Assembly: GCF_902652985.1 (NCBI RefSeq)
Contig: NC_047015.1
Span: forward strand, 29,946,001 to 30,010,000
DNA from: Pecten maximus
Taxonomy: Eukaryota
Direction of reading: 5' to 3'
Length of the DNA: 64,000 nucleotides
Below are positions 3,601 to 59,072 of the stretch, piece after piece. The first letter of the stretch is position 1; each line of letters opens with the position of its first letter. A program made the translations under genes and the position numbers. The notes beneath the pieces were generated by a model that was given only the letters and a program-made list of their open reading frames with translations, ran no database searches and was not told the DNA's origin.

Positions 3601-6600
3601 AATAAATGTTTGACGTTTTCTTGTTTCTAGATTGAGGATCATTGACCAAATTATTTATCAATTGTACATTTATTAATCATCTTATCATATGTTGTTGTTT
3701 TATTAAAAAGAGAAATCATCAACACAAAAAAAAAAAACAAACAAAAAAAGGATATGATATATGATAAAATGTAACTGGCTGATTCCTTTAACTCCAGGTA
3801 TAACAGACAGGTGTGGTTCCTATGTATGCGGGGCCAGATCACCTTACACGTAATGCTAAAACAAAATTGATCAAAACAGATTTTGATGTCGACAAAAATA
3901 TAATAATCTCGAGCTAGGACAATAAATCGCTTGTCTGTCAATGATAGCATAATGAGGTTGATTACATTTGGCGCATACTTACAAATATTCAAGCTGCAGT
4001 CATAAAAATATCAAACTACATCGACCTCAAAAAATCAAAGTACTTTTCATAGGGTCGAGACGGGGAAACTATTCGCAAATAATACGTAGTTACCTCTTTC
4101 AAAGCAAAAACCATCCAGTGAGATACCTGAGAGAATATATATGTGTTTGGTTTTACAGACAGCATCACAGTCGATACATTTTTCAATGTGCTTCAACACT
4201 ACTTCGGAGGGTATGTATGTACATTTTATTATGAGAATAATTTTCATATCCCTCTTCACACCCCAATCCTAGAACATAACAATGTGTTTTATAGAATGAT
4301 ATACGACAGAAATGCACTGCAGAAACACATGACAATTTTTTCCTCAAAAATACTTACACCATTAAATTAGGGTAAATTGTATTTGATGGTTCTAACAAGA
4401 TGTGTAATTCAGAACTTATTGAAATCACAATTAATCCAAATGCTTTTCGCATACTATTTAGATACGGGCCAAAAACACCCTTACTAAATGGTCTAGTGTT
4501 TGAAGGCGTCCGCGACGAACCGATAAATGTAAGTAGCAGCAATAATTACATTACGACATACATATGTACGGTGTCTACAAACCAAAGGAGGCCAGGAAAT
4601 AGTGGACTTTACATTAGTGACTGTCTATTTACTAAACGAGTTCAATGATCATGTCACAATCCCTAATACTATTACACGAGATTTTAAGAAACACGGTAAA
4701 TCCACGAGTATAAGAGTCTGTTATCATATAAGTCATATATATGTAAGACAAAATTGTCAAATTAATTTCTTTACTCGACTCAGACGGTATTTGTCTCTCT
4801 ACAGAGACATTTGTGCGACGTCATATACAAAATGTATTAATGCTGTGTTGTAATTATGTATATATTGATCACCTTGTTTCTGATTAATTAATGTATACTT
4901 GGCAGGCCATCCCGTGCAGTGCTGCCCAGACGTCGACTCTCCCATTGGTAGACGCTGCCCTTGGGGTCAAACACAAACCAGGTAAATTGTACAGTTCTTA
5001 ACGCACCAGACTCCAATTTAAAAAAAAAAAAACTTATACTCTGGTTTATTTTACCAGCATCTACATCACACGATCTTTCTCGTTTCTCAGTGAGTAATAA
5101 TCCTAACATATCAACATTACTTCATGTGTTACTGTTTAGTTATTACATATAAGTCACTCACTCTAAATTACGTTATTTATGTAAATCACCAATCTATTTA
5201 AAGAATTTGATTATATATACCGAAGTGTTAATGTATTGTATGACATTGCATATATCTTACACATTAATGTTTTTTTTTTTATAATTAACTTATACTCAAT
5301 CAATTGTTTTATAACAAGCTGTCCTGACTGATACTACATGTAATACTCATTTAAATTTTAAACATCTCAGTGTTTTAATTGAGTAAAGAAAAAAAATCGG
5401 TAACGCTTTCCAATGATGTTTCCAAATTTCTTTTAGTCAAGCATTGATGAATCTGAGACTTTTATCAGAAGAGTGAAATTCAAAATAGGAATCAGTACAA
5501 AAATATACTCCCTAACACAAATACCGACGACCATATTAGTGTAGGTTTTGCCCTTAACTCTTCTCATTAAGCTATTTTTTCAAAAAGAAAAAAAAAGTTT
5601 TTATGTCAATACACTGTATCGTTTAATCTCAAAATGAAAGAAAATTCACCTTTAACACTGATAGCATTTCTTTGATCTATATCTAACGTTATTGGAATGA
5701 AATTCTTTTGGTATTCAGCTTATTTGATCCTTTTTAATGATATTATATCTTCCTTAATGTTGCAAACGAAAAAACACACAAATCTATAATAAGATCATTG
5801 AAAAGATTAATTCAAGAATTCATACTTTCTTGAAAGATATAACAAGTTCCAACATTACTGATTCAAGGATACTTTAAACTTGACAATTCTAATAGTCATA
5901 GAAGTTAAAACACTTCACTTCAAACTAGACAATACGGAGAAGAAAAGACACAAACTATGTTATTTTTAATCAGACGATCTTAATAATCAATGGTGACCTA
6001 CGAGGCAATTTCAACTATATGATAGAAAACGGTAATAATACACATTAAGGAGAACTATGGCTTGCCAAGTAAACGATGATGCTATTTCCAAGTGAGTGTA
6101 CATGATTTAAGGACCAATAAAGTCAGATGTTGTTTCAGGTATCCGAGCCAAGTTCGTGCGATTTAGGAAACACATGCCATTACACCATAGGCAGCTTATT
6201 GAGGCTGTTGAACAACGATCACAGATACGTCAGTACGGTAAGTCAGGCCACAGATACACAGGTAAACAACGATCACAGATATGTCAGTACGGTAAGTCAG
6301 CCCACAGATACACAGGTAAACAACGATCACAGATACGTCAGTACGGTAAGTCAGCCCAACAGATACACAGGTAAACAACGATCACAGATACGTCAGTACG
6401 GTAAGTCAGCCCACAGATACACAGGTAAACAGCGATCACAGATATGTCAGTACGGTAACCCAGTCCACAGATACACAGGTAAACAACGATCACAGATACG
6501 TCAGTACGGTAAGTCAGCCCACAGATACACAGGTAAACAACGATAACAGATACGTCAGTACGGTAAGTCAGCCCAACAGATACACAGGTAAACAACGATC

Positions 6601-9600
6601 ACAGATACGTCAGTACGGTAAGTCAGTCCACAGATACACAGGTAAACAACTATCACAGATACGTCAGTACGGTATGTCAGCCCACAGATACACAGGTAAA
6701 CAACGATCACAGATATGTCAGGACGGTAAGTCAGCCCACAGATACACAGGTAAACAACGATCACAGATACACATGTAAACAACGATCACAGATACGTCAG
6801 AACGGTAAGTCAGCCCATAAACAGCGATCACAGATACGTCAGTACGGTAAGTCAGCCCACAAACAACGGTCACAAAACGCCAGTATTGTAATTATAAGTC
6901 AACATACAGGGAAACCGACGAGTTATATCTAAACCTCAGACAGGTTCAAACACTTCATGTAGTTTTTGTTACAACGCAACCTCTATTGTATTATCATATG
7001 TCTTTACCAATTTTCCTAATTTCGATTCTAGACAGTGCAAACGTGTGGCATAGCATCATTGACGACACCTAGAAGGACAAAGTAGTCATGTAACATCTAC
7101 ATGTAATGTTGCTATTCAATTGAATATCTGTTGTCCTCTGTACATGCACATGTGGCATGTTGTCGGTAGACAGGTTCATTCTAGTTGAATACGGATTCCA
7201 AAATACGATATCAAATATTTTATTAAATAATCAATAAATTCCAGCGGTCACTGAATGATACATATTGTTTTACCTTGCAGTGACTGATTGCAACGATGAG
7301 GCTCTGACGTCAGCCTTTGAGAACTGTCTGCGTGAACTGGCTGGCTTCCGAAGTGATCACATCAAAATAGTCACCAAGTAAGTGTGGTTAGCAATATCAG
7401 AAGTCTAAAAGGAACTGTCAGTATGAACAAATAGAGGATACTGAATGGTTTAACGCTGAATATAACCTATATTTAACGAGTATGACAGAGTATGACAGAA
7501 TATCGATAATTTCAGGTGTGCGAAGCACGAGTAAAAAATATCGAAATATGCTGTCATACGAGTGATATCAATGTTATATCCAATGGGAAACCTTCAATTT
7601 TATTGCATTTTTATATTAAAAAAACAAAATTAAAAACAGAATCAGTAACATAATGCATGACGTCACTCCAAGTCATTTTCAAAGGACTGATCAATATAAG
7701 ATTTTTCTGAGAATATGTGCATGAAAAGCTAGTGTCAAATTGGTATTTTGACAAAAAACTAGTCAATTTTTTCAGAAACACAGCAAAATAACCAATGTTT
7801 CTATCTTCGCGTTGATTTGAAAAATCGGCAAATTTCCGTGAGGTGAATACTGAGGTTCACTCTGATTGGCAAAAACGAGTTTGATACATTTCTAAATTTC
7901 ACTGAAAAAAAGCAACAAAGTATTACATAATACCCTGTATTAATGTTTAATCTTAATTTGGTTCGGGTTGTGCAAATTTGCACATTGCTAACATTGTTGA
8001 CATTTAAGACTTCGCTCATACTCTAAATGATGATTCCAGTGGTTCACAATTTATGATAACTGAAATACAAGTTTCTATATTTATCTTGATTCTTTCAATG
8101 GAAGGTGTTCTTTCATATCTTGATGATAGATATTGATGTGTTTATGTTTCGGCTTGAAACAAAATCGCATTCTAATCTACTAATATCCCAATTTAATCAT
8201 CTATTTATTTCACTTCCAAATCCCAATGAACTTTATACTAAGGAAATTAACAATCTGTTTTATGATTTTCTGTGGAATGGTAAACCTGATCCAGTAAAAA
8301 GAGACATAATTACAAAAAAAAGTATGAATAAGGGGGGCTCAAGATACTTCATTTAAAATCTTTCATAACCGCTCTTAAAGCAACTTTGGTCAGACGTATA
8401 TATAATAAAGTAGGAAATTGGGATATTGTTCTAGAATCATTATTAGATAAACAGAAATTACCAAATTTTGGAATTGAATATTTAAATAAGAATAAAAAAA
8501 TTGTAAAAATATATTTTGGAAAGATGTTTTAGACGCCTGGTGTAAGACTCTTAATGCACGCAATATATATAAAACAAACATTCTTGAAAATCAAATATGG
8601 TATAATAGTGAAATCAAAATAGATAAAAAAAACAATTTTAAATAATGCCTGGTTTAAAAAAGGTATATACTTTATTCATAACATCATGAAAACAGATAAA
8701 TTTGTATACACTTTTGAATTAGGACTTAATATAAACAGTCTAAAGAATCATATTAAGTTTGAGTTAAAAGCGCATAAAATTTTAATATCCAAAAGTAACA
8801 TTAAAAACAAAATACATATTGACACACAAATACAACAGTGGCTACAAATTTAAAACAATAATACAAATATACAACATCTCTGACCTAGGTTTATTATGTC
8901 CTTTCTATGTCTGTTTTCAGTTGTTTTTGTACACTCGTTTGTTCCTTTCTTTTTTCTCTCTCTTACTCTTATGTTTGTTTGTTTTGTGTACTTATACTCT
9001 TTTTCACTGACGTAATGCTTTTTGAATAAAGTTTAATAAATTATATAATCTAAAGATCACACAATTGTCTTGGGTAGAGTGTAAGTGTTGATGTATAAAG
9101 CGTGAATTTTTTTGTCCTTACTCATGTATTTTGTATTTGTCATGTATTGTAAACTAAATTTGAAAATGAATAAAATATCAATTAAAAGAAAATCGCATTC
9201 GTACGTCTTACATGTACATAACTACTGGAACATTATACTTCTTCAGTTTAAAAACTAAATTTCCAAACGTGTTTGTATTACAGATATGTGGTGATTCCCG
9301 GCAAGGGTGTTACTCCTGACATAGAAGGTAAGGCAGTCCTTAGCTTTATGCTTAGACGAGATAGAACACAAGCTCAAGTTACAAATGTATACGGTTGATT
9401 GATCTCGGATAACATGGTACATGTACATGTTAATAACTTAATACGCTGATACCGTGTCAGGTGGCACGATCATAGAAGTTCACACACTGAAGCCAGGGGT
9501 GTGGTACTAATGTAGTTCATGTTCGTACAATGTGTACATTGATGTCACGTCACGTGGTAGCAGATCATATATCACGCTGATGTCACGTCACGTGGTAGCA

Positions 9601-9989
9601 GATCATAGTCCACGCTGATGCCACGTCACGTGGTATCAGATCATATTTCATGCTGATGTCACGTCACGTGGCATCAGATCATACTTCACGCTGATGTCAC
9701 GTCACGTGGGACCAGATCATTTCCATATGCTTATGTAGTGTTACATGGTACTTTTATCATATGTCTATAAATCTGGTATACTTAAAATGATATCTCATAA
9801 GAACACAATGTTATCTGTTAGAAATATCTATTAGCATACTGAAAGTCAGTAAAATGTTAGGTCGGCGTGGTAGTTTTTTTTGTTTTTTTTTTTGTTTTTT
9901 TGTGATAATCTAATACTTTCAAAATCTTGAACGTTTCAGGCATGATGACCTCTCTGAAATGTATGAGGAATGAATCCACTGGCACTTAG
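631..9989 (+). CDS. IDO-family heme protein, divergent paralog (gene A; IDO-like/IDO-type myoglobin-like). 5'-partial; exons 3-14 in window
   Basis: AG/GT-bounded, phase-compatible exons: 631-750 (LKLLDHKKLSRHAELSLARIQLSFFVAGYVWQNGRKDPAE), 994-1112 (KIPRCIAIPFYGVSESLSLPPVLCYCDAALMNW..), 1549-1563 (15-nt microexon), 1847-1946 (NMKTIYLFPGGHETDTFIRVSVWIELAF..), 2196-2313, 4159-4210 (DTFFNVLQHYFG), 4462-4528 (NGLVFEGVRDEP), 4906-4981 (AIPCSAAQTSTLPLVDAALGVKH), 6139-6237 (FRKHMPLHHRQLI), 7281-7377 (LAGFRSDHIKIVTK), 9284-9327 (YVVIPGKG..), 9940-9989 (MMTSLKCMRNESTGT*). Total 957 nt with no internal stop. Exon sizes 120/119/15/100/118/52 match gene B and the vertebrate IDO1 pattern. Confidence 0.92.
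1190..1460. repeat. Degenerate low-complexity tandem repeat (tagatattttgtagtcacacatatg-like) in gene A intron 4
   Basis: Recurrent 'tagatatttt..gtagtcacaca' motifs; produces the spurious 1188-1460 ORF. Confidence 0.6.
6211..6885 (+). repeat. 54-bp minisatellite (~12 copies) built from the 3' end of gene A exon 11 plus its splice donor
   Basis: Unit aacaacgatcacagatacgtcagtacg|gtaagtcagcccacagatacacaggta. The first copy overlaps the exon; donor positions after 6237, 6291, 6345, 6400 and onward. Confidence 0.95.
7432..7600. repeat. Imperfect palindromic (hairpin-forming) interspersed element in gene A intron 12
   Basis: Arms 'gtatgacag..atatcgata' and 'atatcgaaatatgctgtcatac' surround a central 'gtgcgaagcac' hairpin; resembles a non-autonomous palindromic element. 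Confidence 0.4.
8173..9188 (+). mobile_element. 5'-truncated, decayed L1/Tx1-like non-LTR retrotransposon fragment
   Basis: Peptide remnant LISQFNHLFISLPNP..EINNLFYDFLWNGKPDPVKRDII..KGG (post-RT region typical of Tx1/L1); A-rich tail with AATAAA; 12-bp target-site duplication aaaatcgcattc at 8161-8172 and 9189-9200. Confidence 0.85.
9538..9745. repeat. 38-bp minisatellite (~5 copies) in gene A intron 13
   Basis: Unit gatgtcacgtcacgtggtagcagatcatatatcacgct. Confidence 0.9.
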
Positions 9990-21561: not shown

Positions 21562-24500
21562 ATGGACTCCGCTCGTTCGTCCCCAGCGAGCCTATCAGAC
21601 TACCATATAGACCCACATGTAGGATTCCTGTTGAAGGAAGCCCTGGTAATGTAGTCTGTTTGTCGTCTACACACTTCGTACGTCTGCTACATACGTATTC
21701 TTGTTTAGACTTTCTGAAGTCCATTATTTCACTGTTTAGTATAAACATATAATTATGTTCTTGATTTTTATCATTATAAAACTAAGGTGTCACAAAGTAG
21801 GTCGCTATTGTTGGTACATAGACGAAAGCTCATAACAGCGGTACACATAATAATGTACACATAACAATAGTAATACGCATACACACTCTACCGTGCCCAC
21901 ACCTGTGATTATACTATTGTTATACATGTAAACAGGAAGTACTACCGGAGTATTTCCACGTGTGGAATCACCTATCTGATCCGTCTGTGCTTATTCCACT
22001 CATCGAAAGTCATGCACTGCGTCAGGAAATAGACAAGGTGGGTATCACTTACTGCTTCCAGGGGAAATAAGTAATTAAAATAATAAAACAGTTTGTTACC
22101 AGTGTATATACATACACCGGAAATTCATAATAAGGAGGTGAAGTAAGAACGACACAAAGGCAGGTTTTCGCAAACAAATACGGGATTTTATAATTTCCCC
22201 TTTAAAATATATACAGCGGTTACAAATATTGAAATACATGTAATTATTAAAGTGCACTGTGTTGTAAGCCAATCTGTTCTATACGTAAAAGTCGACGACA
22301 GAAACATACAAATGTACTATCCTTATATGGACATTGAATACTCTAACTTTGTTGTACTGGGCCTGGTATATTTCAGATGCCTATTCTGGACCATTCTCGT
22401 CTTACCGGACACCGACAGCTCCGACTAGCACACCTCCAACTCTCGGTCTTAGTCAATGGCTACGTATGGCAAGATGGTGACCACGGCGTCCCAAAGGTAG
22501 GCATCCTTGAGGTTTATCTCCATCTTCATAGAAAGTTACCATGATAATCGTGTCCCAAACACTGCTTGGAGATAAATGAGAGGTTAAAACGACAAAAGGT
22601 TCCATATTTTACTTACTGATCATCATTTACTATACATATCCGTCCGCATACTTTGCCATCTCGTCTTCAGAGAGTTTCAAAGCTACCACCATCGCTAATC
22701 ACATGACCCAAATCTTGCACCAAGAGTTTTTGTCCGATGTGTTTCCATTGATATCTCACGAGATCTTGTGTCATTGTGATGGTGGCCATTTTCAAAACTA
22801 TGCTGAAACGGTATTGGAAAGAGTGTTGGCGGATATGGTTAGTGACCGATGATCAGTGAGTAAAACGTGTATGTCAGGTGATAAAATAGTATCTTTAATT
22901 TTCAACCGATGTATACCTTTTATGTGTCAGGGTGAAGGGAATTGGGGAGTGTTGTTCAAAGGCCGATGAGCGTGGGTCGGAAAAATGCTTGTTTTCTGTA
23001 TGGTGCGTCACATATATATTATGCTTCCGATTACCGCGAATTTTTCCAAACATAGATTTTTGTTTATTTTCTTTAAAAATTAAAAAAAAAAAAAAAAATA
23101 AAATTTAAAGGTTTCCCATTTTGAATATAACATGCATCGTACTCGTTTGATTGAATTTACCGTGAAGATGTCGATGTTAGTCATAATGAATGGTAAACCC
23201 TATCGATATAAATATGTTGCATTATAATGTTGCTGTTCTAGAGCGTTCCACGCTGTCTGTCCGTGCCATTTTGTGGGGTTTCACGACTCCTTGGTGTCCA
23301 GCCCATCCTGTCCCACTGTGATGTTGTACTGGCCAACTGGGTGGTTATCGACAAAACAAGGTACCGCGATCATTGCACTATTATTATTATTATTATTATT
23401 TCTTTACTTCCTCCAAATTTGAAGAGCAATAGAAATAACACAAAATACACATAAATCTCAAACAACATAGAAAGAAAAGAAAATTCGAACTGATAAGAGG
23501 GGAATGCGTGTACATTTTCAGAGTATATACTCCCTGATAAAAGAAACTAACCAAAAACATTTAAAATAGCCAGGTTTATTTCTTATGCAATGTTCTTATC
23601 ATTTTACCTCATAATAACCACGATGCTCTTGTTTCTTCTTTCAGACCACCAACTTTAGAGTAAGTGTACCAAAGACCGCCTTATCGCAGCATGTCGAAAA
23701 CCCCATGGGCATTGGTTGCGTAGTTTTGTGTAATCAAGAAAGGAGAAAATTATCAGAATTGAAAGTAGACAAAAAAAATCACCTGTTTATAATTAATTTA
23801 CCTATATTGAAACAAACCGATAAAAGAGGGGAAACGGAGTTCAGTCCTGTGGAGTTCATTTTCCTTATTTAAGCTGAAAAAACTACATAGCGATAAGAGA
23901 TTGAACACTGAAAGAAGTTGTAATATAATGTGTCCATGGTTTATACCAGACAAACTAGGTATTGATAAAACTGTTATTTTTTCAGGAACATCCGGGTCCT
24001 ATACTACCCTCCTGGAGGTGATGAGGCAGCTTGGTTCTTTAAGGCCACAGTTGGCGTGGAGCTGGCATTTTGTTCTGCGTTACAGGTAGAGTATGTTTTT
24101 GTCTCTTAATGTTTTCTACTCTATCTAGTGTAGGGCACAAATCTAGCGCGAGATTGAATATATTCTCGATATCAACTTCATCCCTTAGTTGTGTCTTCCT
24201 TGTTATTTTCCAGCCTATGATGCGGGCCATGGAGGCTGCTGACGTTGGAGACGACGCAAGTCTAGTTAAATGTCTCAAGGACATTGCTGCCACAGTAAAA
24301 AACATGCAGACAGCGGTGTCCAAACTACATGGTTCGTACCCGTGTCCGGTGTATTACCTGAATGACGTAGGCATCGTCTTAAGTTTAAAATGAACAATAT
24401 GTAAAGTCCTCTTATGCCAACATATCTTTGATTTGTTTGCGTTTGTCTTCCCTTACGCTTACAGGGAGTAGACATAATATTAACAAACGTTTGAACGAAA

Positions 24501-27500
24501 TACTAACGCATTGACATGTATTCCTGTGCCTTCGTGCACGTGTTGGCAATTCGTTCGTATTATATTTGTTTACTGATGGGTAATAGCCACTATTGCCCTG
24601 TTTAAAGATGGTGTCGGTGATATTTTGATACATGTCTAATCATGGTTTATATTTATACATACATGTATTACACATATATTTGATTGGGACGATTGATCAT
24701 ATGTCCTACAGATGGACTGAGTGCAGACACTTTCTACAATGTGACGAGACCTTTTCTTACGGGGTAAGTGATTCTTCCTTTAGAGTTTGGTTTGGTTTGT
24801 TTTGTTTATTGTCATATTATCAGCCAGGGTCATTTAAGGACGTGCCAGGTTTGGAGGTGGAGGAAAGCCGGAGTACCCGGAGAACCAAACCATCGGCCTA
24901 CGGTCAGTACCTGGTAAATGCTCCACATACATGTTGGTTTCGAACTCGCAACCCAGAGGTGGAGGGCTAGTGATACAGGAGTCCGAATATCCATTTTTTC
25001 CTAACAGAAAGGCAAAATCAATTGTTCATCAAATAAGATATCGATAATTTATACAATGAAAACATCAACAAAGCATAGTATTCGACAAATACCAACAGGG
25101 GCGACTAAATCGCAACCAGCCAGCTTGTGGCCGACTTCACCGAATCAAATACGCTGTTACCTGAATGAGGAATGATACTGTATGCTACGCATCCGGACCT
25201 CCTAGGGGAATTCTTTTGATATATACACATTTTGTTACGTGGAATTCCTCGACATCTTTTAATCTCACTGGGATATAGACCATAATAAATCCTTATTACA
25301 AACTTATAACACTCGCCTAATAACATATGTGATAGATGAAATATTCATGTTATCAAAAATCCTTGTATTAAGTTATAAATCGCTATTCCGAATGCCAAAC
25401 TAACTTTCAAGCTGTTGTGATTTGTACGGTATTATGATTTATTTGTAGATGGGGCGGGGAGAGTTCCCCTTTACCCGTGGGACTAGTGTATGAAGGAGTA
25501 AGTGATGATCCAGTCCAGGTAAGCTAAAATGATTCACATTGCAATGTAGCATAAGGCAGTGATATTGAGCGGGCGTTAAAACAGTCCGTACGATACTGAA
25601 TACATTCATAGAAACAGAAATACGTATTTATGCTTAATAATTTAAACTCACAAATGTAAAATATTATTGCGACAGAATATCTACTTGTAGTGTCAAGAAA
25701 AATTCTATTTAAGACGTTGGAAGCAGTTTGAGATTATTTCAAATCGTGTTCCAGTGATTTCCCCGTTGTGATACTGTTGTGTAAATGACTGTTTTGATTT
25801 GGTTTTACATGATGATATGTACTACAGGTGTATTATATACCTTTACATGATGATATGTACTACAGGTGTATTATATACCTTTACATGATGATATGTACTA
25901 CAGGTGTATTATATACCTTTACACGATGATATGTACTACAGGTGTATTATATACCTTTGCATGATGATATGTACTACAGGTGTATTATACACCTTTACAT
26001 GATGATATGTACTACAGGTGTATTATATACCTTTACATGATGATATGTACTACATGTGTATTATATATGTACCTTACACGATGATATGTACTACAGGTGT
26101 AGTATATAACTTTACGTGATGATATGTACTACAGGTGTATTATATACCTTTTATCCGGTAGATGACCGGAGGAAGTGCCGCCCAGAGTTCTACAATACAA
26201 AGTCTGGACGCTGCCCTCGGGATAACGCACGCGCCCGGTAAGTTGCGAGTGGGGAGGGGTTGCATGTTAAAATGTATCCTCTAAATATGCACTGAAATCA
26301 TTCCCGTACATGTATGCAGGTTTACAATGTCTTTCCTAATTTATTATAATTGTTTTTTACTAAGTGTTATGTATTCTTTGCATGTACATTTAGTTTTTTG
26401 AATATTTACCCATAGTATTTAACAGAGAACAAAATTATCCCGTTTTGAAATATAATGATGTGGTCTCCTTATTATCTGAATTCCTGGGAGAGAATTTTAC
26501 GTACAGTATATATCTTGCGTTTTAATGGATTTTGATCCATTTGTATTGGGTATTTTTAATTGTTAAACATTGATTTGCTTGATTACACTATAAATGTTGA
26601 GTCTACCATTAAAACGCATCAAATATTACCAGTTAGATTCCAGATTGAATCTATTCCCCCACGGAGAAGGGGTGTACTCCCGGACTCCATTCAAGTTATA
26701 TAGGCCTGTTGTATGGAAAACCCGAATTACTGATGTTTCCTCTCCCCAAGAGTATTGGCAAGTTGGTGTTCACTTAACACGAATATGTAAATACGATATT
26801 TGTGTGCAATATTGTAGATGTGCAGGCATTTTTTGACGGAATGAAGCCATATATGCCACGCCCACATCGAAAGTTTTTGGATGATATACGGACAAGGTCA
26901 AGAATCGCAGCTTACGGTCAGTGAATATTCCATCACATCTGTGCGTTAACGTTTACTTTGATCGAAAATGAGTGTCTGACGACAGGTTTGACTGGCTACT
27001 TATGCCCTGTTATTAATTAAAAGATGATGACATTCTCCTTTTTCCTTTTTGAATTTGACGTCCTACACATATAAATTATGATACCTTGGCTGTCTGAAGA
27101 AAACACAGATTTTATGTTAATACACTGCAATAATACCTGAACGAGTTTTATGTTGAAATTGCTACATCATTAGGCAAACGTTTGGTGATCTGAAGACTAA
27201 AGGACATTTTTTATCCTGTATCAAACAAGTTCTAGACGCTAACATTTAAGAAATCTTTGTGAGTTTGATTTCTGTTAATATTTCATATCCTATATCAAGC
27301 TGATATATTCGTCTGATGAGACAAAAACATTTTAATTTCATGGTTGTGAGATATGAACCGTAACCATACATTATTCTAAACTATTCACCGTTTCCAATTG
27401 CCACATAGGAGATTCTAAATTGTAGTCACAGAGGTGTACAAAAACGAGGTTTTTAGGGAAAAACAGCTCATTGTGCTCCAAATACGACAAATGTCAGTTT

Positions 27501-33500: not shown

Positions 33501-36500
33501 TAAATATGTATTATAACGGGCCGTAAATCATATGTAACATTTGAGCAATATTCTATTATAACGGGCCGTATAAAACATGTAACATCTCACTAAATGTCTA
33601 TTAAAACGGACCATATATAACATGGAACATTTATATAACGCTCTATTATAACGGGCCGTATACAACATGTCACAATTATATAATGTTCTGTTTTAACGGA
33701 CCGTATATAACATGTAACTTCCCACTAAATATGTATTATAACGGGCCGTAAATCATATGTAACATTTGAGCAATATTCTATTATAACGGGCCGTATAAAA
33801 CATGTAACATCTCACTAAATGTCTATTAAAACGGACCATAGATAACATGTAACATTTATATAACGTTCTATTTAGTGTTATAACGGCACGTCTATAACAT
33901 GTCACAATTATATAATGTTCTGTGTTAACGGGCTGTATATAACATGTAACTTCTTACTAATTTTCTTTTATAATGGACCGTATATGGCATATGGCATTTG
34001 AATAATGTTCTATTTTAACGGGCGATATATAACATAACTTGTTACTAATTTTCTATTATACGGGCCGTATACAACATGTCACAATTATATTATATTCTGT
34101 TTTAACGGGCCGTATATAACATACATATTCTTACTAATTTTCTTTCATAATGGGCCGTATATGACATATGACACTTGAATAATGTTCTATTTTAACGGGC
34201 CATATATAGCAAGTAACTTCTTACTAATTTTCTATTATAACGGGCCATATACAACATGTCACAATTATATTATGTTCTGTTTTAACAGCCTGTATATAAC
34301 ATGTAAATTTTGAGCAATATTCTATTAAAACGGGCCGTATACAACATGCAACATCTCACTAATTTTCTATTATAACGGGCCGTTTATAACATGTCACAAT
34401 ATATAATGTTCTCTTTTAACGGGCCGTATAAAACATGTGATGCTGATGTAACCTCTTACTAATTTTCTATTATATCGGGCAGTATACAGCATGTAACATT
34501 TGAATAATGTTCTATCATAACGGGCCGTATACAACATGTAACATCTCACTAATTTTCTATTAAAACGGGCCCTATATAACATGTCACAATTATATAATGT
34601 TCTATTTTAACGGGCCGTTTATAACATGTAACTTCTTACTACGAACCTCACCTTACGACCACCTCAAAATTACGACCACCCCGCTATTACGGGCACTTTT
34701 TTTCAGTCCCGATTTTTTTCTCTATATATCTTTGTATTGGTCGCTTCACTATTACGACCACTTTGCTATTCCGTATTACGACCACCTTGGGCAGTCCCAA
34801 CGAATACTAATTAACGCTTATTACCCCCACAATTACGACCAGTTGGTCGTGTCTAAAAAATTACCTGGTGTGTAGCGAACCGTGAACAGCTTACGGTAAT
34901 GCGTGTCAAACTGGCCATTGACGTGTGTATACGTAATTATCGATCTTTTGTTTACTGACCAGTGTATCGACAGGTGAGTAGAATGGCTATTAATCTCTTT
35001 GAAATCTTCGCACTGACCGGAAGGTAAAATAAACATCCAGTCTTTCATTGTTCGTGACAAGCCAACATGTGCCGGGTTTTAGTTTGTAGTCCTTTGTTTA
35101 CCGTTACGGGTGATCGCCCTTCCTCGGTGGCGCTGTGACGGATTAAATACACAAGTGATCAGATTATCTATCTTGCCTTGAAAATTGTAATAACCGTACA
35201 TTTGCTTATTAATTATGGTATTCAAATAATTGATTTGTGGCTGTTGGTCGTTTTAAGACCCGATTACATACAAGCGAGTAAAATAAACATAGTAACGTTT
35301 GATTTTTTTCTGGTCAAGCGCAAGTTTTTTCAGCGATCTCGATGTTTTTGTATCAATGCCGAATAGGGTCTGTAGATAGGTGTTATTATAATTTAAAAAA
35401 AAAAAACATGTTTGGTTTCAAATATTTCGCTAGAATTATGCTATTCTTTCTAACTTCATTTCTTTTTTCGCTCATGATGGCCACATCACGTAAACGTAAC
35501 GAGTTATCACTAAAAAAGAAAATTGAACTGATTCAATGTAGCAATGGTCGTAGTCAACGACAACTTGCTGAACAGTTTGGGGTCGGCAAAACACAGGTCA
35601 GAGCATCTTGAAAAGAAAGACAGAAATTTTAGAAGGTTATGAAGAAAATAAAGGAAATGATAGACAAAAACAATTGTCTTTGTTTTTATTTAAAGTTAAG
35701 ACTATGGCATGTATTTAGCCAAATCTATACAACTTGCACCTGAGTTCAGTCAATTAAGAGTTACGGTTCCTGATGGTCTAGCTCAAATTGGTCCACCTTG
35801 GCACTTTGACCCGGACCCCCAGGTGTTCCTAATAGTGAGGTTTCACTGTAATTTTCTTTTATAACGGGCCGTATACAGCATGTAACATCTCACTGAATGT
35901 CTATTATAACGGGCCATATAACATTTAACTTCTTACTAATTTTCTACTATACTGGTGTAATGGGCCGTATACAACATGTAACATTTGAATAATTTTCTAT
36001 TTCAACGGGCCATGAAACATGTAACTTACTACTTTTCTTTTATTACGGGCCGTATACAACATATATAACGTGTAACGACTTACATCACCCTGTTCATAGC
36101 CTTTATTACGAGGACACGGGTTTCGTTGCATACCAATAACGATTTCGATTACAACACTTCTAATAATACAAGTTTAAAATGGAATTCGTACATGAAATAA
36201 ATGCTTAAAGTAAAGTTTCAACATCGTGGGTATGTGAATGTTCAAACTTAGGCTAATTATTTTATTTGTGATACGAATGTTTATTGTTTTAACTCAACGG
36301 AATTTAAATGTAAATAATGTGTTTAATTTAAAAATGAATCCCTACAGTAAAAAGAAATTTTTAACAAAACTCAAGCTAAATATACGTACAACCTGTAAAA
36401 GCATATATTCGGAACATTTTTGACGTGCACGGAAACCATACGTGTCAACTCACCAGCAGTTATAGGCGGGTTCCGATTAGAACACCCGACAGAACAGATA

Positions 36501-39500
36501 CCTGTGGTGCTGTGACAGGCGTGACGACCGTGTCGACCGTAATTTCACACCTGATTATTGTTAAATGGTATACTAACCCACTCACAGTCGAGTACACTTT
36601 TATGTCTGTATGATTTGTAATCAGTTAAGTTAAATAATATCAAGAAAAATATCAGTGATAGTTCGCCATGTTGATAAGGGTTATCGGATAGTAGTAAATG
36701 GTCTGATGTGATTTTGTTTCGCATTTTCAATCATTTAAAACAGTAAAATATCTACGTTGTTGTACTATAGCTGTCTTCTGCAAATTTGGTTTATGAAAAT
36801 GGTATGCAAAATTATTAATAAGGAATGAAATGAGATGAATTCAAAGTTCGTGTAAAATAGAGGTAAATATCATGTAATGTCGGAGAATACAGATAAGATA
36901 CATGTAATTTTGGAGAACACAGGTAAAATCCAGGTAAGGTATAGGTGAAGACTATAATGACTGTCACAACATACCTGCCCGTAACTTATTTGTAAGAAGT
37001 GGGAGAAAGGAGACCCCCCCCCCCCCCCCCCGCCGCGGTAATCGATTTTTCTTACCTTGTGGGTCAGTCACCCGTGTCGACAGATTCACAGCTCTAGATC
37101 GTTTGTCACACCAAGTCGTCATAGCAACCGCTGCGAGGCCTTAGCCCCAGGCATTTACCCGTTCAACTCAGTTTTTGTAACGGTATTTTGCTTTCCTATA
37201 CAGCGAATTAATTAATGATTATAGACTGGTCTTGCTTTTGTTTCAAACTTAAAGCAGATGATAACTATGATATCAACAAATTTTATTCCGTAGTTATTAC
37301 GTGAGAACCCATAAACCAACATACATAATGTACGTAACCAAAATATGATTATTATTGATCAGATCATAAGTAATATACGGAAAGAATATCTGTAATATAG
37401 TTCACACTTAATGAAATTTAGATATATATATTTTTTTAAATAGAAGGTGCTTCACACAGACATGGGCTCGTAAAGATGACACATTAAAAGAATTTATCCT
37501 ATAACACAGTATCAACTGATATAAGCACATCGTTTACTTTGCGTTTTAACTTCTGTAACATAAAATACATTAATACAATGGTGTACACGCAAATTACATA
37601 AAAGATATTTACTAGTGTTAATATGAGATTAATAGATTATTTACAATTAAAATAATTATGTTATATACGGCCCGTTACTAAAAGAAATTAGTGAGATGTT
37701 ACATGTTGTATACGGCCCGTTATAATAGAGCATTATTGAAATATTACATGTTATATACGGCCCGTTACTAAAGAAAATTAATGAGATGTTACATGTTGTA
37801 TACGGCCCGTTATAATAGAGCATTATTCAAATATTACATGTTATATACGGCCCTTTACTAAAGAAAATTAATGAGATGTTACATGTTGTATACGGCCCGT
37901 TATAATAGAGCATTATTCAAATATTACATGTTATATACGGCCCGTTACTAAAGAAAATTAATGAGATGTTACATGTTGTATATGGCCCGTTATAATAGAG
38001 CATTATTCAAATATTACATGTTATATACGGCCCGTTACTAAAGAAAATTAATGAGATGTTACATGTTGTATACGGCCCGTTATAATAGAGCATTATTCAA
38101 ATATTACATGTTATATACGGCCCGTTACTAAAGAAAATTAATGAAATGTTACATGTTGTATACGGCCCGTTATAATAGAGCATTATTCAAATATTACATT
38201 ACCAGTGAAACGGAAGGGAAGTAACTCTTATATATCGTTAGGCCATCCTGCCTTCGGCCGTGATTAGGAGACGCGGTAAAGTAAGCATAACTTCAAAACA
38301 TAAGCTAGCCACGCTATCTAGCGTTCCACGACGGATCGCGCTGTTCCGTGGACATACACGCCTTCCGGCGGGCCACGATATCCAGTGTTCCTCGACGGGC
38401 CGCGCTGTTGCGTGGACACCCACGGTATCTGCCGATCCATCACGAATCGCGGAATAACGTGGACACTTTGCCCACGCATGTCCACTAGTGGACATTGCGT
38501 GGGCAGTCCACCGTGGGCGCGTGGAAACCGCAAAGTCCACGTAAGCTGTAGTGTATCACATACAGATTGTCACCAAGTAGGTATCACATACAGATTGTCA
38601 CCGAGTAGGTATCACATACAGATTGTCACCAAGTAGGCATCACATACAGATTGTCACCAAGTAGTTATCACATACAGATTGTCACCAAGTAGGTATCACA
38701 TACAGATTGTCACCAAGTAGGTAACATACAGATTGTCACCAAGTAGTTATCACATACAGATTGTCACCAAGTAGGTATCAAATACAGATTGTCACCAAGT
38801 ACACATACAGATTGTCACCAAGTAGGTATCACATACAGATTGTCACCAAGTAGGTATCACATACAGATTGTTACTGACAAATATATATGTAGTGCCTCAC
38901 AGTAACGGCAGTAACGTGTTTGTAGGGTAATATCATACCTTTCCTTTTGTGTCGTCAAGCTTCCCGACAGGAGACCTACATGTCAGTTTCCTGCAATATT
39001 TAGAGATATGAAAGTGTCATGGCATAGGAACTCAACAGGTTAGCTATCTGGTTGATGGAGTACATGTAATAATCTGTATTTGATTCCTATGTTGATGTTT
39101 GTTGTGTACGGGTCTCCCCCTACACATTTTCCAGGATGTGATTACATATCACTAGTTTCCTTTCATTTAAATATATAATTGGCTCGCGTTCCTGTTTAAG
39201 GAACGTAATAATAAGGGAACGGATGGCTCCGACATCTTGGCATTGTATTCTTGTATTATAGGTACATAATTGTTGCATCCAGCAAGAAGAGACAAGAAGA
39301 GGAAAAATACCAATCTGTGTCTAAAAAAGGAACGGGCGGTTCTAGTGAGTATAGAATGATATGTGGTACATTATGACTCCTCCCCTTGTAGAAGTAGTGT
39401 TGTCCATTTATGGAAACTAAGATGACCAAAGTAATTTTGCCACCGCAATTGGAACATTTTGATCGAATATCTTTCTGCTTCCAAAGTACCAAACACTTCT

Positions 39501-39960
39501 ATAACATCTTTGTCGTCTACGTTGGTATTACTGGCTTTGGTCTCTGATATGAGTGTCCTCCCGAGACAGGTCACGAGTTCTCGCTCAGACAAACATCCAA
39601 GTTTAGAAAATCGGTATTTCTTGTTCTATTTAACGTTCAATAATAAGTTGTCGGTAAGGATTAGTAATTTTGATATGATCAGACAGGGTATCACGCTAAG
39701 GTGTATATTTACAGGTCATTCATACTTCGTACATTATTGTATTAATTAGCTTTGGCAATGATGATAAACCACAAACGGGTACACGTTTTATGCGGTATAT
39801 AAATGAAACTTCTCGGTATCTAAAATGTTTCAGATTCTCGTCGTTTGGAATTCTATAGTTGGCTTCTGTAGAAATAGATCTGTTGATAACTGTTACAGGT
39901 ATACTGCCATTCCTGAAGAGCTCCAGGGATACTACAAAGCGTATGAACGAGTCCATGTGA
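21562..39960 (+). CDS. IDO: Indoleamine 2,3-dioxygenase (gene B; canonical, IDO2-like pocket), 14 coding exons, 398 aa
   Basis: Exons: 21562-21645 (MDSARSSPASLSDYHIDPHVGFLLKEAL), 21936-22037 (EVLPEYFHVWNHL..), 22377-22496 (GHRQLRLAHLQLSVLVNGYVWQ), 23242-23360 (PILSHCDVVLANW), 23645-23659 (15-nt microexon), 23986-24085 (PGGDEAAWFFKATVGVELA), 24214-24331, 24712-24763 (FYNVTRPFLTG), 25449-25518 (W..GLVYEGV), 26162-26237 (GGSAAQSSTIQSLDAALGITH), 26818-26916 (MKPYMPRPHRKFL), 29464-29560 (AYNDCITSLVDFRSYHIQIVTK), 39262-39344 (YII..KGTGGS), 39899-39960 (ILPFLKSSRDTT..*). Total 1197 nt, all GT-AG, in frame. Confidence 0.95.
24785..24975 (-). mobile_element. SINE copy (same family as 18156-18369) in gene B intron 8
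   Basis: Reverse-complement match including the B box, core and gtttg tail. Confidence 0.85.
25806..26150. repeat. 38-bp minisatellite (~9 copies) ending ~11 nt before the gene B exon-10 acceptor
   Basis: Unit tacatgatgatatgtactacaggtgtattatatacctt. Confidence 0.95.
27525..29140 (-). mobile_element. Highly decayed non-LTR retrotransposon 3' fragment (RTEX-like) in gene B intron 11
   Basis: Minus-strand remnants ILSPFLYAIYLNDL (RT) and HLQFCKCILNVRRSTPNFMMYGETG; many frameshifts; short (ttcaaga) repeat at the presumed tail. Clade assignment is inference. Confidence 0.7.
29533..30757 (+). repeat. 28-bp minisatellite, left part (~44 copies), built from the gene B exon-12 end plus splice donor
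   Basis: Unit gtaggtatcacatacagattgtcaccaa (with a 26-bp variant lacking 'tc'). The first copy is exonic (S-Y-H-I-Q-I-V-T-K). Confidence 0.97.
33170..34641 (+). repeat. 45-bp satellite; the first part is a 5-monomer, 225-bp higher-order repeat x3
   Basis: Core tctattataacgggccgtatacaacatgtaac; cores at 33201, 33246, 33291, 33336, 33381, 33426; HOR starts at 33201, 33426, 33651. Confidence 0.92.
34642..35848 (+). mobile_element. Pogo/Tigger-like deletion derivative nested in the 45-bp satellite
   Basis: TA duplication (34640-34641, 35849-35850) interrupting a satellite unit. The right end reads cagtgaaacctcacta.. in reverse complement; the left end is eroded (cgaacctcacctt..). Remnant CENP-B-type HTH: MATSRKRNELSLKKKIELIQCSNGRSQRQLAEQFGVGKTQV/ILKRKTEILEGYEEN at ~35477-35650. 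Confidence 0.85.
35849..36070 (+). repeat. Continuation of the 45-bp satellite after the pogo insertion
   Basis: Same ataacgggccgtatacaacatgtaac core, ~5 copies. Confidence 0.9.
37655..38200 (-). repeat. 45-bp satellite in inverted orientation, 90-bp dimeric higher-order repeat x6
   Basis: tacggcccgttataatagag at 37711, 37801, 37891, 37981 (variant), 38071 and 38161; this is the reverse complement of the 33-36 kb core. Confidence 0.95.
38554..38871 (+). repeat. 28-bp splice-donor minisatellite, right part (~11 copies)
   Basis: Same unit as 29533-30757, resuming in register after the transposon. Confidence 0.97.
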
Positions 39961-41790: not shown

Positions 41791-41861
41791 TATATTGAAG
41801 CCGAGTTGAATAATATTGACTCGTACTCTCATGATCGACTGGACCGAAGATCAGGCCCTGG

Positions 41862-41892
<31 letters not shown>

Positions 41893-52365: not shown

Positions 52366-53481
52366 CTACGTGTACGTGTGTTTTTTCTGACAATTTAGTG
52401 TATCTGATACTAGTTTTTCCCATATGTAGTTCTTCATATGAGAACTTACTTTAGTTGAGGATATACGACTATTCTGAATGTAATCACACGCGTGTGGGGG
52501 GCTGTCTAGGTAAAACGTGAACCCAGGCACGTCGACCACCTCGGCACTGATCACCTTAGCCAGGATACCCGTAATGTATGCGTCCTCAATGGGGATATAC
52601 GGCATAAAGTGTGACGTTCTAAATAAGGTCGCTGCGACGTTGGCGGAAATGACATATGTGTTACCGGCAGTGTATGGTGGGTAATGTGGGAATGGGTAGT
52701 CTTTGTTCTCCACCTTCCATCTCCCTATACGTTTAACAATGCCACCGGTGTTCACGTGCCCCAGTACGACACCCTGGTAGGCCGGGTGTCGGGTTTGTGC
52801 CAAGACGTCCAATAGTTTGGGGATGTGTACGAAGGTATCCTCGTCCGCCTTCAACACGTATTGGGCGTCGGCACAATGCGTCGATACCCAGTGTAGACCC
52901 ATCAACATCTTCCGAGTCAAGTTTGAATACGTATCACTAAAATCAGCCTGTACAACATCGCCATACACTTCACTTTCCAACTGTGCAACTCTGTTGTTTT
53001 TCATGGCGGGATCCTCACCAAATAGGAACACGAGTTTTGTGGTGACGTTGATATGATATCGAGGCCAGTGGTTTCCCTTAGCAACACTTCCCCATGAATT
53101 ACGTATGGCTCGACGTTCCTCCACGTGTGTTTGTATAGATGGAATGAGGATGACCAAATACACTGAGCTTTCTCCTGAGCAAATTGACGAACCGGGAACA
53201 ATATATCTAAATGAAAAGGGATTCACTTTTTCTGTTCTGGGAATAAAGTATTGTGCATACTGTTCATCCCTTGAAAATTGAGAAAAACATCTCGTTCCAG
53301 TACATGCTTGCGATACGGGTCGGTGGAGAGCGGTATGAGTCTTTTTGGGTTGCGTTTCCTGACTCTCCGAAACTCGCAGGGATGTCATACATAGCGAAAA
53401 GAGCACTACCCCGCAAACCACAACGCCGGCTCGCATCAACAGGCGGAGAGTATACGGTAGTCGTTGTTGCGAAACTGCCAT
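52366..53481 (-). CDS. B3GALT: Beta-1,3-galactosyltransferase family (GT31) type II membrane protein, 371 aa
   Basis: N-terminal TM anchor; GT31 motifs LVILIPS..RRAIRNSWG, LVFLFG, E..YGDVVQADFSDTYSNLTRK, YVLKADEDTFV, YPPYTAGNTYVIS, IEDAYITGI. An acceptor (ttttttccag) lies just upstream of the ATG, implying a 5' UTR exon. Confidence 0.93.
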   Translation of the reverse strand: MAVSQQRLPYTLRLLMRAGVVVCGVVLFSLCMTSLRVSESQETQPKKTHTALHRPVSQACTGTRCFSQFSRDEQYAQYFIPRTEKVNPFSFRYIVPGSSICSGESSVYLVILIPSIQTHVEERRAIRNSWGSVAKGNHWPRYHINVTTKLVFLFGEDPAMKNNRVAQLESEVYGDVVQADFSDTYSNLTRKMLMGLHWVSTHCADAQYVLKADEDTFVHIPKLLDVLAQTRHPAYQGVVLGHVNTGGIVKRIGRWKVENKDYPFPHYPPYTAGNTYVISANVAATLFRTSHFMPYIPIEDAYITGILAKVISAEVVDVPGFTFYLDSPPHACDYIQNSRISSTKVSSHMKNYIWEKLVSDTLNCQKKHTYT

Positions 53482-55112: not shown

Positions 55113-55747
55113 CTACAATTAACAGATCACACACTTAAACATAGACTACAATTAACAGATCACACACTAAAACATAGACTACAATTTACAGATCACACAC
55201 TTAAACATAGACTACAATTTAAACACTTAAACATAGACTACAATTTAAACACTAAAACAAAGACTACAATTAACAGATCACACACTAAAACATAGACTAC
55301 AATTTACAGATCACACACTTAAACATAGACTACAATTAAACACTAAAACATAGACTACAATTTACAAATCACACACTAAATTATAGACTACAATTAACAG
55401 ATCACACACTAAACATAGACTACAATTTAAATATCACACACTTCAACATAGACTACAATTAACAGATCACGCACTAAAACATAGACTACAATTTACAGAT
55501 CACACACTTAAACATAGACTACAATTTAAATATCGCACACTTAAACATAGACTACAATTTACAGATTAGATAATATTACATAGACTACAATTTACAGATT
55601 AGGTAATATTACATAGACTACAATTTACAGATTAGATAATATTACATAGACTACAATTTACAGATTAGATAATATTACATAGACTACAATTTACAGATTA
55701 GATAATATTACATAGACTACAATTTACAGATTAGATAATATTACATA
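55113..55747. repeat. 33-bp minisatellite with two sequential unit types
   Basis: catagactacaattaacagatcacacacttaaa, then catagactacaatttacagattagataatatta. Confidence 0.92.
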
Positions 55748-56573: not shown

Positions 56574-59072
56574 ATGAATTGGAACGATACGTGTTTTCAC
56601 GGAGAGCATCCTCGTGACATCTACTGTTACCCGGACTCACCGGTATGTGTTACACCGGCATTGGTAGGTCTCCAGATACTTTTCCTTGTCTGCGTCATGA
56701 TACTAAGTGTGACGTCATGTACACTGCTAATCTACGTCGTACATCGGACGAGGTCGATGTCGATATCGATGAAGACGTGTATCATTAGTCTGTCGACTGC
56801 CTACATTTTGTCGTCCGTGTATCCAATTCCTATTCTGTGCTACTCCATCATCTATTCGCATCTCGTCATTGCCGACGCTGTGTGTCGCTCGTCTCCGCTG
56901 GTTGTCATGGTGACGTCCATATCCACTAACTGGACACTAGCTTTGGTAGGTTTGGACAGATTCCTCACTATCTTCCGTCCATTCACCTACCCTATAACTA
57001 TGAACCTCCGTAAAAGTGTGGCGATGGTGGTATCTGCGTGGTTAATCGGTGTGGTGTTCGCCACACAGCCATGTTTTGGGTGGAGAGACGTAGGTATATG
57101 TTTCCAGCCAAGGGCACTACAGATCTGTGGAATCACGTGGAATACATCTAAAGTGTTCTCCTACGTCACGTGGTCTCTGACCGTCGCAGCGCCGTTCTGT
57201 CTCCTTGTGTTTTGTTATTCCAAGATTGCACTGTTGGCGAAGTCATTGATAGACCCTGAACGCGGAGAAAATGTCATACGAATACCACGTACATGTAGCA
57301 ACAACGTCCGCCCTGAACGTCGACTTGTGCGCAGGAGATCGGTCACCGCATGCCTTAAGACATTCAAAATAGTTATCATCAACATCGGTAAGATACATAC
57401 ATTTTACCGTCACTGTTATTTCTGAAATTACGATACAATCAAAATGTAATTATTGATGTTATCAATATAACAATTATTCATGTATTGAACAAAATACAGA
57501 TTTACTCGGTGATAGTTTGATAGACATTTTATATCAATGTACAGTTATTACCAGGAATATTGAATCCGTTAAAAAGGTCAGTTTGAAATATCACAGACCT
57601 GTAACTCCTTCCCTGAGTTAAACCCCCCACCCCCCACCCATCGTGTCTGAAACAGAGCCACGCCTTACCGTCACAGCCTTCATTATGTATATCCGCCCTT
57701 GCCTTTTCATATTCGCACAAAGGAACAAATATTACCATTACGTCACTCCAGTTCAGCAAATTCCAAGTCATTGCCATCTGAATAAATACGTACCTTATCA
57801 AGTCCGCCTTTGTCAGCGGCCTTTCTTAGACCATACTTCCCGTCCCTGCTTCGAAAGAGAAGCACCATCTTGCCTCCAATTTGCTTCTTCCCGACCCTAA
57901 ATGCATGTTTAGGCGAGATATTGCCCAACCTGTCTGTTCCACACTATCTTTCCCCTACCACTCGCCTATTTCCGACCATCCCTGTTGTGGAAGCTGTATT
58001 TAGGAACCATCTATCTTGCTCCTATACGTGCTGTATATAAGAGGTCTCACAAATGTAGTCCACCGCTTTGGCGGATCTGTTAGCTCCTTTTCCAGAGCTA
58101 TGTTACCCTGTTCCGCTCTGATTTCAGGGTGGAACTCGAAAATTTCCAGAAACGGTCTTAAAAATAACTACATGTACTAATAAACATTCTAATTGATAAA
58201 TGGTTTTGTAAAGCATCACTCAAATGATATTGAATTCGACAAAAATCACTTGCATCCTCATGTGTACAATTCTGGGTCATTGAAACAGTATGGTGGCTTC
58301 AGTAAGAAACAGACAATACAATACACAGCACTTTCAATACCGTTCCGCTTGTTCTGTGAAGTACCTCAATACGATTTTAGATAAACCGGTTTTGACCTTA
58401 AGAGGTCACATTCAAAACAGATATAGCAGTATTTATGAGTGAATCAGTATTGCAACTATTACAAACGCCAATCATGCCTGCTTTTTTTATATACATGTAC
58501 TTATGGACATAAGTTTTGGGAACGTGTGTACTAGTCAAATCTTGATTAGGTAAGGAACTTATGATTTATGATAACCTTTCGAACTGCGTTATGTGATGTT
58601 TCCTAGCAGAGTGAACAATCAGCTGAGGAAATTAAAGGTAACACGGCGTCTATCGAAAGCTCTATACTCTAACTGTGCTGTGTCCTGTAGGTGCTCTATA
58701 CTCTAACAGTGTTGTGTCCTGTATATTGTAGGCACCATCTGTCTGTGCTGGGTACCCTATTCCGTGCTGTCTGTGATGAGCCTAGACGCAAACAGAGCTG
58801 GTATTACCTACAGTCAGGACTTCATCGGCTATTGTTTACTCTTCCTACCTAACTTTGTTAATCCTATTGTTTTCATCGGCTTTAACAAGGACTACAGGGA
58901 CAGCGTCACTCGGCTGTGGAACCGGATGTGGGGTACAGTAAGGAATACCTCGGGTGTGTCGGCCTATGAACGTTCACGTCGTACGCTCGACTCCACACAG
59001 TACGATTACACGACCACAACTGCGAATGTGAGAGTACGAACAGTGAGACAAGTGTCTATACGTCATATGTAG
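56574..59072 (+). CDS. Rhodopsin-like (class A) orphan GPCR, 2 coding exons, ~384 aa
   Basis: Exon 56574-57387 (TM1-5, C3.25, LDRF..I.RPFTYP, W4.50, LLVFCYSKI; phase-1 donor g|gtaaga) plus exon 58732-59072 (GTICLCWVPY, NFVNPIVFIGFNKDYR). Total 1155 nt in frame. Confidence 0.9.

What the first reader, a model, noticed from the sequence alone, without database searches (positions are those of the whole stretch)
6211..58731. Recurrent pattern: tandem repeats originate at or beside splice sites in three different genes
Seen: four cases with unrelated sequences in 64 kb: donor-containing arrays at gene A exon 11 and gene B exon 12, an array abutting the gene B exon-10 acceptor, and a 2-copy branchpoint/acceptor duplication at GPCR exon 2. 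Inference: there may be a genome-wide bias for minisatellite birth at exon-intron junctions (for example co-transcriptional R-loops or pausing). Tandem duplication of AG/GT-containing sequence is also a proposed route to intron gain or sliding. Caveat: at least five other arrays in the window are not at splice sites.
Basis: inference. Interest (0 to 1): 0.72.

Follow-up and report, generated by a model that had tools for sequence, protein, structure and literature searches.

The report
Scallop repeats crowd exon edges
In this scallop about one intron in eleven carries a tandem repeat that copies its own splice signal, a type already known from lancelets and humans; such repeats are modestly concentrated next to exons, more at intron starts than ends, likely because they survive longer there rather than because they are born there.

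Summary
All four cases are real. The window is scallop DNA (database label Pecten maximus): two IDO-like genes and a GPCR. Two arrays span a donor: known 'mirage' repeats. Two only abut an acceptor. RNA contigs of two studies use gene B's exon-adjacent sites. I tested the bias on 979 dynein and myosin introns elsewhere in the genome. 85 of 421 local arrays span a splice site (84 introns, 8.6%), near chance (70-88). Donors exceed acceptors: 55 vs 30, and 31 vs 9 where 16 or more exon bases are copied (P=0.0007). Array origins are about 3.5-fold denser within 50 nt of a site than 200-800 nt away; 1.6-fold per base overall, 1.2-fold within their own intron. A sharp peak at the junction failed to replicate. 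Perfect two-copy duplications lie evenly (12 of 34 vs 11.6), and intron interiors turn over fast between paralogs, so survival beside exons fits better than birth at junctions; that evidence is mixed. No G-skew for R-loops, no intron gain. The scan noted two single mirages elsewhere in this genome. Known kind; I found no such count or asymmetry in print.

The parts
631..9989 (+). Gene A, IDO-like (PF01231), coding exons 3-14; exons 1-2 lie upstream of the window
   Evidence: P0161 (labelled myoglobin-like, Pecten maximus) aligns at 100%; micro-exon 1549-1563 from homologs
6139..6237 (+). Gene A coding exon 11
6211..6874 (+). Donor-spanning array: 54-bp unit (27 nt exon + donor + intron) x10.3, then a 42-bp variant x2.4; 22 donor-like GT sites, the first four extra ones in frame without a stop
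   Evidence: two-copy seed at the same donor in the upstream paralog
21562..39960 (+). Gene B, IDO-like, 14 coding exons
   Evidence: P0001 aligns at 100%; RNA contigs of X9 and X6
25804..26151 (+). 38-bp array x9.1 ending 10 nt before the exon-10 acceptor; each unit holds an AG that scores above the real acceptor (7.3 vs 5.5 bits) yet is skipped
   Evidence: exon 9 joined at 26161/26162 in X9 and X6
29533..30765 (+). Donor-spanning 28-bp array x44.6 (last 28 nt of exon 12, with a 6-of-7 microhomology to the donor); any later donor gives a stop at once
   Evidence: first donor used in X9 and X6
30758..38553 (.). 7.8-kb element with terminal inverted repeats beginning CACTAC and a TA duplication, inserted into the 28-bp array
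   Evidence: the label CACTA/EnSpm-like is recalled, not tested
38548..38871 (+). Rest of the 28-bp array (11.8 copies) beyond the insertion
56575..59072 (+). Rhodopsin-family GPCR gene, two coding exons (56575-57387, 58732-59072)
   Evidence: Pfam 7tm_1, E 1.5e-19; boundaries read from the sequence; no RNA joint seen
58659..58723 (+). 34-bp two-copy duplication with a branch-point-like CTAAC, ending 8 nt before the acceptor at 58731
   Evidence: DNA run X2 carries about 75 extra bases here that include a copy of the acceptor and 20 exon bases (inferred from the laid contig)

Best explanation
These are locally made tandem repeats of the 'mirage' type in a genome rich in minisatellites; they are likely born at near-even rates along introns and likely pile up beside exons because that DNA persists while intron interiors are replaced. 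Short duplications (median unit about 35 nt) arise often, and introns are short once arrays are collapsed (median about 370 nt), so chance alone puts about a fifth of arrays across a splice site. Seeds next to exons last long enough to expand. The exon-adjacent splice site is used, so extra donors downstream are tolerated, whereas an upstream copy of an acceptor with a long piece of exon is likely removed by selection. Shown: frequency, gradient, donor/acceptor asymmetry, site use in gene B, persistence of two seeds between paralogs. Inferred: even birth, survival bias, selection at acceptors.
For: 85 of 421 arrays span a site vs 69.9-87.6 expected. Gene-adjusted density 3.6, 3.5, 2.1, 1.6 at 0-25, 25-50, 50-100, 100-200 nt relative to 200-800 nt. 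Between gene A and its paralog (84% exon identity) intron DNA is alignable for 68, 29, 10, 7 and 1% over the same distances. The paralog holds a two-copy seed of gene A's exon-11 array, and both share an exon-2 donor repeat (2.1 and 7.9 copies). Perfect two-copy duplications: 12 of 34 within 100 nt vs 11.6 expected; 5 of 34 within 50 nt vs 100 of 277 multi-copy arrays, Fisher P=0.012. Deep overlaps 31 donor vs 9 acceptor, P=0.0007, kept in all six changes of settings; the acceptor deficit was fixed beforehand and replicated in myosins, 0 vs 3.9-6.3. 9 of 348 array-bearing introns collapse below 120 nt, down to 44 nt, while the shortest of 644 array-free introns is 89 nt. RNA contigs in two studies use the exon-adjacent sites of gene B.
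Against: The age test is mixed: TRF two-copy repeats show 1.47 (97% or more, n=23), 1.45 and 1.22-fold against 1.7-fold for multi-copy arrays, and the gene-adjusted rate for two-copy repeats of 90% or more is 2.6-4.7 with wide limits. Density rises again beyond 800 nt (1.8-fold), unexplained. The turnover gradient rests on one paralog pair, and alignments are anchored in exons, which inflates the first bin. In introns of 500 nt or more the excess within 59 nt is at donors only (40 vs 18-20; acceptors 21 vs 18-20), which a donor-linked birth process would also give. Copies mostly keep GT (92%) and AG (90%) with near-authentic scores (copies were found by likeness, which favours intact ones), so selection has not purged decoys. 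Splice sites are predicted by homology in two gene families, and the dispersed-repeat mask came from 2 Mb only.
Confidence: 0.55

Rival explanations
1. Duplications are born, or seeds expand, more often beside exons because recombination or repair starts in exons, which are islands of identity between divergent alleles, and slips on entering the unlike intron.
For: The broad gradient is present on both sides (donor half 4.3, 3.8, 2.4, 1.7; acceptor half 3.1, 3.4, 1.9, 1.6). Alleles differ by many intron indels. Arrays per intron rise towards chromosome ends (Spearman -0.49, P=0.003). 12 of 49 clean duplications have 4 or more bases of microhomology vs 5% by chance.
Against: Perfect two-copy duplications are evenly placed. 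Median microhomology is no larger than chance (P=0.62). No recombination data here. An expansion bias cannot be told from a survival bias with these data.
Confidence: 0.22
2. Birth coupled to transcription and splicing at the donor (R-loop or polymerase pausing).
For: Donor-side excess in both families: spanning 44 vs 28-35 and 11 vs 6.6-8.7; within 59 nt in long introns 40 vs 18-20.
Against: No G-rich sense strand: GC skew 0.07 +/- 0.04 in donor-spanning units, -0.01 in donor-near units, 0.03 mid-intron; donor-proximal intron DNA is 31-35% GC with skew near zero. Intron interiors (0.4-0.7 arrays per kb) resemble DNA far from predicted exons (0.40-0.56). The peak at -15 to +14 nt seen in dyneins (77 vs 40-44) failed in myosins (9 vs about 10).
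Confidence: 0.12
3. No real bias: background repeat density plus unmasked young insertions and the way arrays were collapsed explain everything.
For: Spanning total matches chance under the larger-footprint null (85 vs 87.6; gene bootstrap 0.78-1.17). 29% of 38 evenly sampled 10-kb stretches is tandem repeat. The mask is incomplete.
Against: The donor/acceptor asymmetry needs no footprint model and survives all setting changes. The gradient holds in introns of 500 nt or more (2.5-2.8) and appears in a small, impure independent set (6 arrays in 4.3 kb, 1.4 per kb vs 0.46).
Confidence: 0.11

Closest known systems
Amphioxus 'mirages' (globin BflGb6 and BflGb9, Adh3: PMC3087553, passages read; PGBD5 and TnC: PMC3902484, passage read)
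   Same: Minisatellite-like tandem copies of an exon-intron boundary, donor or acceptor side, units of 10-160 bp, copy number variable, splicing undisturbed, proposed as a route to new introns.
   Different: Reported there for single loci, with mechanism called unclear; here counted in 979 introns of a mollusc against a null, with a donor/acceptor asymmetry. Two of the four window cases hold no exon sequence.
Human F7 intron 7 37-bp VNTR (PMC1557585, abstract read)
   Same: First unit spans the donor; identical downstream donors stay silent; the most upstream one is used.
   Different: One locus, tested by mutation; in scallop only site use in gene B is shown, by RNA contigs.
Internal tandem repeats at exon-intron boundaries of human segmental duplications (PMC2812944, outline and passages read)
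   Same: Minisatellites at exon-intron boundaries that differ between paralogs.
   Different: There they create new introns and alternative transcripts; here no intron gain was found.
Human spl-TRs (PMC10078293, passages read)
   Same: Tandem repeats near splice junctions.
   Different: Defined by an association of length with splicing; not testable here.

Membership tests
Mirage repeats | Tandem unit spans an exon-intron boundary | tested here: met
   Gene A exon 11 (27 nt of exon) and gene B exon 12 (28 nt); 85 more in other genes
Mirage repeats | Same feature for the gene B exon-10 array and the GPCR duplication in this assembly | tested here: not met
   They end 10 and 8 nt before the acceptor and hold no exon sequence; the X2 allele of the GPCR appears to span it
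Mirage repeats | Copies keep splice signals | tested here: met
   Identical donors in gene A and B copies; 51 of 52 donor and 28 of 29 acceptor arrays examined keep at least one intact copy
Mirage repeats | Normal splicing at the authentic site | tested here: met
   Gene B, RNA contigs of X9 and X6. Gene A only through the database protein P0161; GPCR joint not covered. Contigs hide rare forms.
Mirage repeats | Length variation between alleles or cells | tested here: inconclusive
   Depths differ between X2 and X5 but contig depth is no copy number; GPCR allele differs in X2; copy number differs between paralogs
Intron gain by tandem duplication (Rogers model) | An array spans a whole intron, donor in the first copy and acceptor in the last, at a position absent from relatives | tested here: not met
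   0 of 979 confident introns; positions shared with a paralog for 38 of 84 spanned vs 443 of 895 other introns, P=0.49; genes A, A' and B have the same 13 introns
R-loop-linked repeat birth | G-rich non-template strand near donors | tested here: not met
R-loop-linked repeat birth | Mapped R-loops or pausing in the germ line at these sites | not testable with these tools
   needs DRIP-seq or nascent RNA data

The most novel reading that the evidence does not exclude
Scallop has a genome-wide process that makes or amplifies tandem repeats at exon edges, leaving of the order of ten thousand introns (extrapolated) with rows of intact decoy splice sites; the 3:1 donor/acceptor asymmetry is a natural, genome-scale readout of how the spliceosome chooses among identical sites.
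Probability: 0.3. Interest if true: 0.7.

Novelty: new member of a known kind. Interest (0 to 1): 0.46.

Why it matters
Mirages were known from a few lancelet and human loci. Here they occupy about 9% of sampled introns of a mollusc and can be counted against a null. The donor/acceptor asymmetry gives a testable prediction about splice-site choice among identical sites, and the data suggest a plain reason for the pattern (persistence beside exons) in place of a special mutation process. In practice such arrays can mislead gene models and exon-flanking primers in scallops.

Tried and rejected
A sharp peak of array ends at -15 to +14 nt: seen in dyneins (donor 41 vs 20-22, acceptor 36 vs 20-22), window chosen after the fact, fixed in a note, not replicated in myosins (2 and 7 vs about 5 each); rejected. 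Assembly artefact: rejected. Intron gain or sliding: not seen. In-frame bias: unit length divisible by three in 19 of 55 donor and 6 of 30 acceptor arrays vs 79 of 216 mid-intron; no signal. General microhomology: median not above chance. RNA joint at the GPCR intron: contigs of X9 and X6 cover exon 2 only; no verdict. Low-depth RNA contigs inside the 28-bp array may be unspliced RNA or DNA; not counted as use of later donors. The ab initio exon set is small and impure: of 32 predicted exons in the even sample 13 had a Pfam hit, 5 of them retrotransposon domains; used only as a weak check. The five IDO genes (49 introns, 18 arrays, 4 donor and 0 acceptor spans) include the discovery cases and were left out of pooled tests. 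Rows dropped: 105 of 1084 introns where two alignment passes disagreed (result unchanged when kept), introns with weak or frameshifted flanking exons, and arrays whose unit occurs in another fetched locus (52 of 497 in the first dynein run). Paper searches found no count of such repeats in a mollusc; the library lacks most subscription papers, the original Adh paper was not seen, and no supplements were read.

Full report
Identity and gene structure. An exon of gene B matches at 100% a protein labelled myoglobin-like of Pecten maximus, family PF01231; gene A likewise. The window is G000:C1:29946001-30010000, in a cluster of five IDO-like genes. A galactosyltransferase and a rhodopsin-family GPCR follow.

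The four cases. TRF finds all four. Gene A's 54-bp array starts 27 nt inside exon 11, gene B's 28-bp array 28 nt inside exon 12; the 38-bp array ends 10 nt, and the GPCR duplication 8 nt, before an acceptor. Two span a junction, two abut one. In the window 4 of 17 arrays are on or within 12 nt of a site against 0.79 expected (P=0.007), a post hoc figure. RNA contigs of X9 and X6, from two studies, join exon 9 to the acceptor at 26161 and exon 12's first donor to exon 13, although each 38-bp unit holds an AG that scores higher than the real acceptor. DNA runs X2 and X5 carry both gene B arrays. In X2 the GPCR site has about 75 extra bases that include a copy of the acceptor and 20 exon bases (my reading of the laid contig). 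The close paralog of gene A has a two-copy seed at the same exon-11 donor, and both genes share a repeat at the exon-2 donor: seeds persist and expand in one lineage.

Prior art. Tandem copies of exon-intron boundaries are described in amphioxus as mirages, with normal splicing and a proposed role in intron gain (PMC3087553, passages; PMC3902484, passage). Human F7 intron 7 shows that the first of several identical donors is used (PMC1557585, abstract). PMC2812944 (outline and passages) reports boundary repeats in human segmental duplications. Tandem repeats make up 21.7% of another scallop genome (PMC10225492, passages); my permissive TRF setting gives 29% in 38 evenly spaced 10-kb stretches. 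Two earlier notes of this scan report single donor mirages in this genome.

Test set. To choose exons without regard to repeats I fetched 17 dynein heavy chain and 19 myosin motor gene regions and aligned homologs in two passes. Kept: 750 and 229 introns where both passes agree and flanking exons score well. Arrays: TRF score 50 or more, period 10 or more, unit not found in other loci. The null collapses each array to one unit and places it evenly within its own intron, boundary overlaps allowed, with two footprint rules.

Results. 85 of 421 arrays span a site, in 84 introns (70 dynein, 14 myosin), against 69.9-87.6 expected; gene bootstrap 0.98-1.47 and 0.78-1.17. Donors: 55 vs 35.0-43.8. Acceptors: 30. 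Where 16 or more exon bases are copied, 31 donors vs 9 acceptors (P=0.0007); this holds with TRF on the other strand, four other TRF settings and without the agreement filter (for all spans one setting gives P=0.05). Of three predictions fixed before the myosin run, the acceptor deficit replicated (0 vs 3.9-6.3), the donor excess pointed the same way without significance (11 vs 6.6-8.7, P 0.06-0.24), and the narrow peak failed (9 vs about 10). The within-intron null cannot see a broad zone in short introns, so I also counted per base. Gene-adjusted density relative to 200-800 nt is 3.6 (2.4-5.0), 3.5, 2.1 and 1.6 at 0-25, 25-50, 50-100 and 100-200 nt, and 1.8 beyond 800 nt. Overall 203 of 412 arrays span or lie within 59 nt of a site: 1.6-fold per base, 1.2-fold within their own intron. 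DNA over 2 kb from predicted exons has 0.40-0.56 arrays per kb, like intron interiors.

Mechanism. Shown: abundance, gradient, asymmetry, site use in gene B, seed persistence. For survival over birth: perfect two-copy duplications are evenly placed (12 of 34 within 100 nt vs 11.6) and differ from multi-copy arrays (P=0.012 within 50 nt, 0.045 within 100 nt); intron DNA between gene A and its paralog stays alignable only near exons (68, 29, 10, 7, 1%); some array-filled introns collapse to 44-68 nt, below any array-free intron, which suggests loss of flanks up to the splice signals. Against: TRF's near-perfect two-copy class is enriched 1.47-fold (n=23), not clearly below the 1.7-fold of old arrays, and the excess in long introns is donor-only. 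I read the acceptor deficit as selection against upstream acceptors followed by exon sequence; that is inference, and decoy AGs mostly stay intact. R-loops get no support from strand skew. No intron gain: no confident intron is spanned whole, and spanned introns are no more gene-specific than others.

Limits. Two gene families, predicted sites, a repeat mask from 2 Mb, contigs rather than reads, no related genomes, no supplements read.

Verdict. The proposed bias exists in weaker, broader and lopsided form, and is more likely a matter of persistence and selection than of birth at junctions. The frequency and the asymmetry were not found in nine paper searches. Interest 0.46.

Noticed in passing
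window 30758-38553: 7.8-kb element with inverted ends beginning CACTAC and a TA duplication, inserted into the 28-bp array; holds inverted 45/90-bp arrays (33171-34632, 37658-38199) and, near 35303-35611, a reading frame that looks like a CENP-B/pogo helix-turn-helix piece (label recalled).
   Followed up: partly
G000:C1:29.87-29.99 Mb (L006-L013 and window): Cluster of five IDO-like genes, labelled myoglobin-like or IDO2-like, with a shared exon layout; two form a head-to-head-inverted pair upstream.
   Followed up: partly
window 1549-1563: 15-nt micro-exon of gene A with good splice sites, present in paralogs but missing from the database protein P0161.
   Followed up: partly
window 41835-44570 and 45321-48218: Two LINE-like endonuclease/reverse transcriptase frames in opposite orientation; the first is broken, the second runs 965 codons.
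   Followed up: no
window 52366-53481, minus strand: Single-exon galactosyltransferase frame (PF01762, E 6.8e-42).
   Followed up: partly
dynein loci L066-L071 and L119-L123; myosin loci L158-L159: Introns made almost wholly of one array, collapsing to 44, 55, 63 and 68 nt; candidates for erosion or for intron gain.
   Followed up: partly
36 dynein and myosin genes: Arrays per intron rise towards chromosome ends (Spearman -0.49, P=0.003).
   Followed up: partly
window 27521-27556: A 36-nt stretch of gene B intron 11 matches abundant RNA contigs of another transcript in X6 and X9; probably a piece of a dispersed repeat.
   Followed up: no
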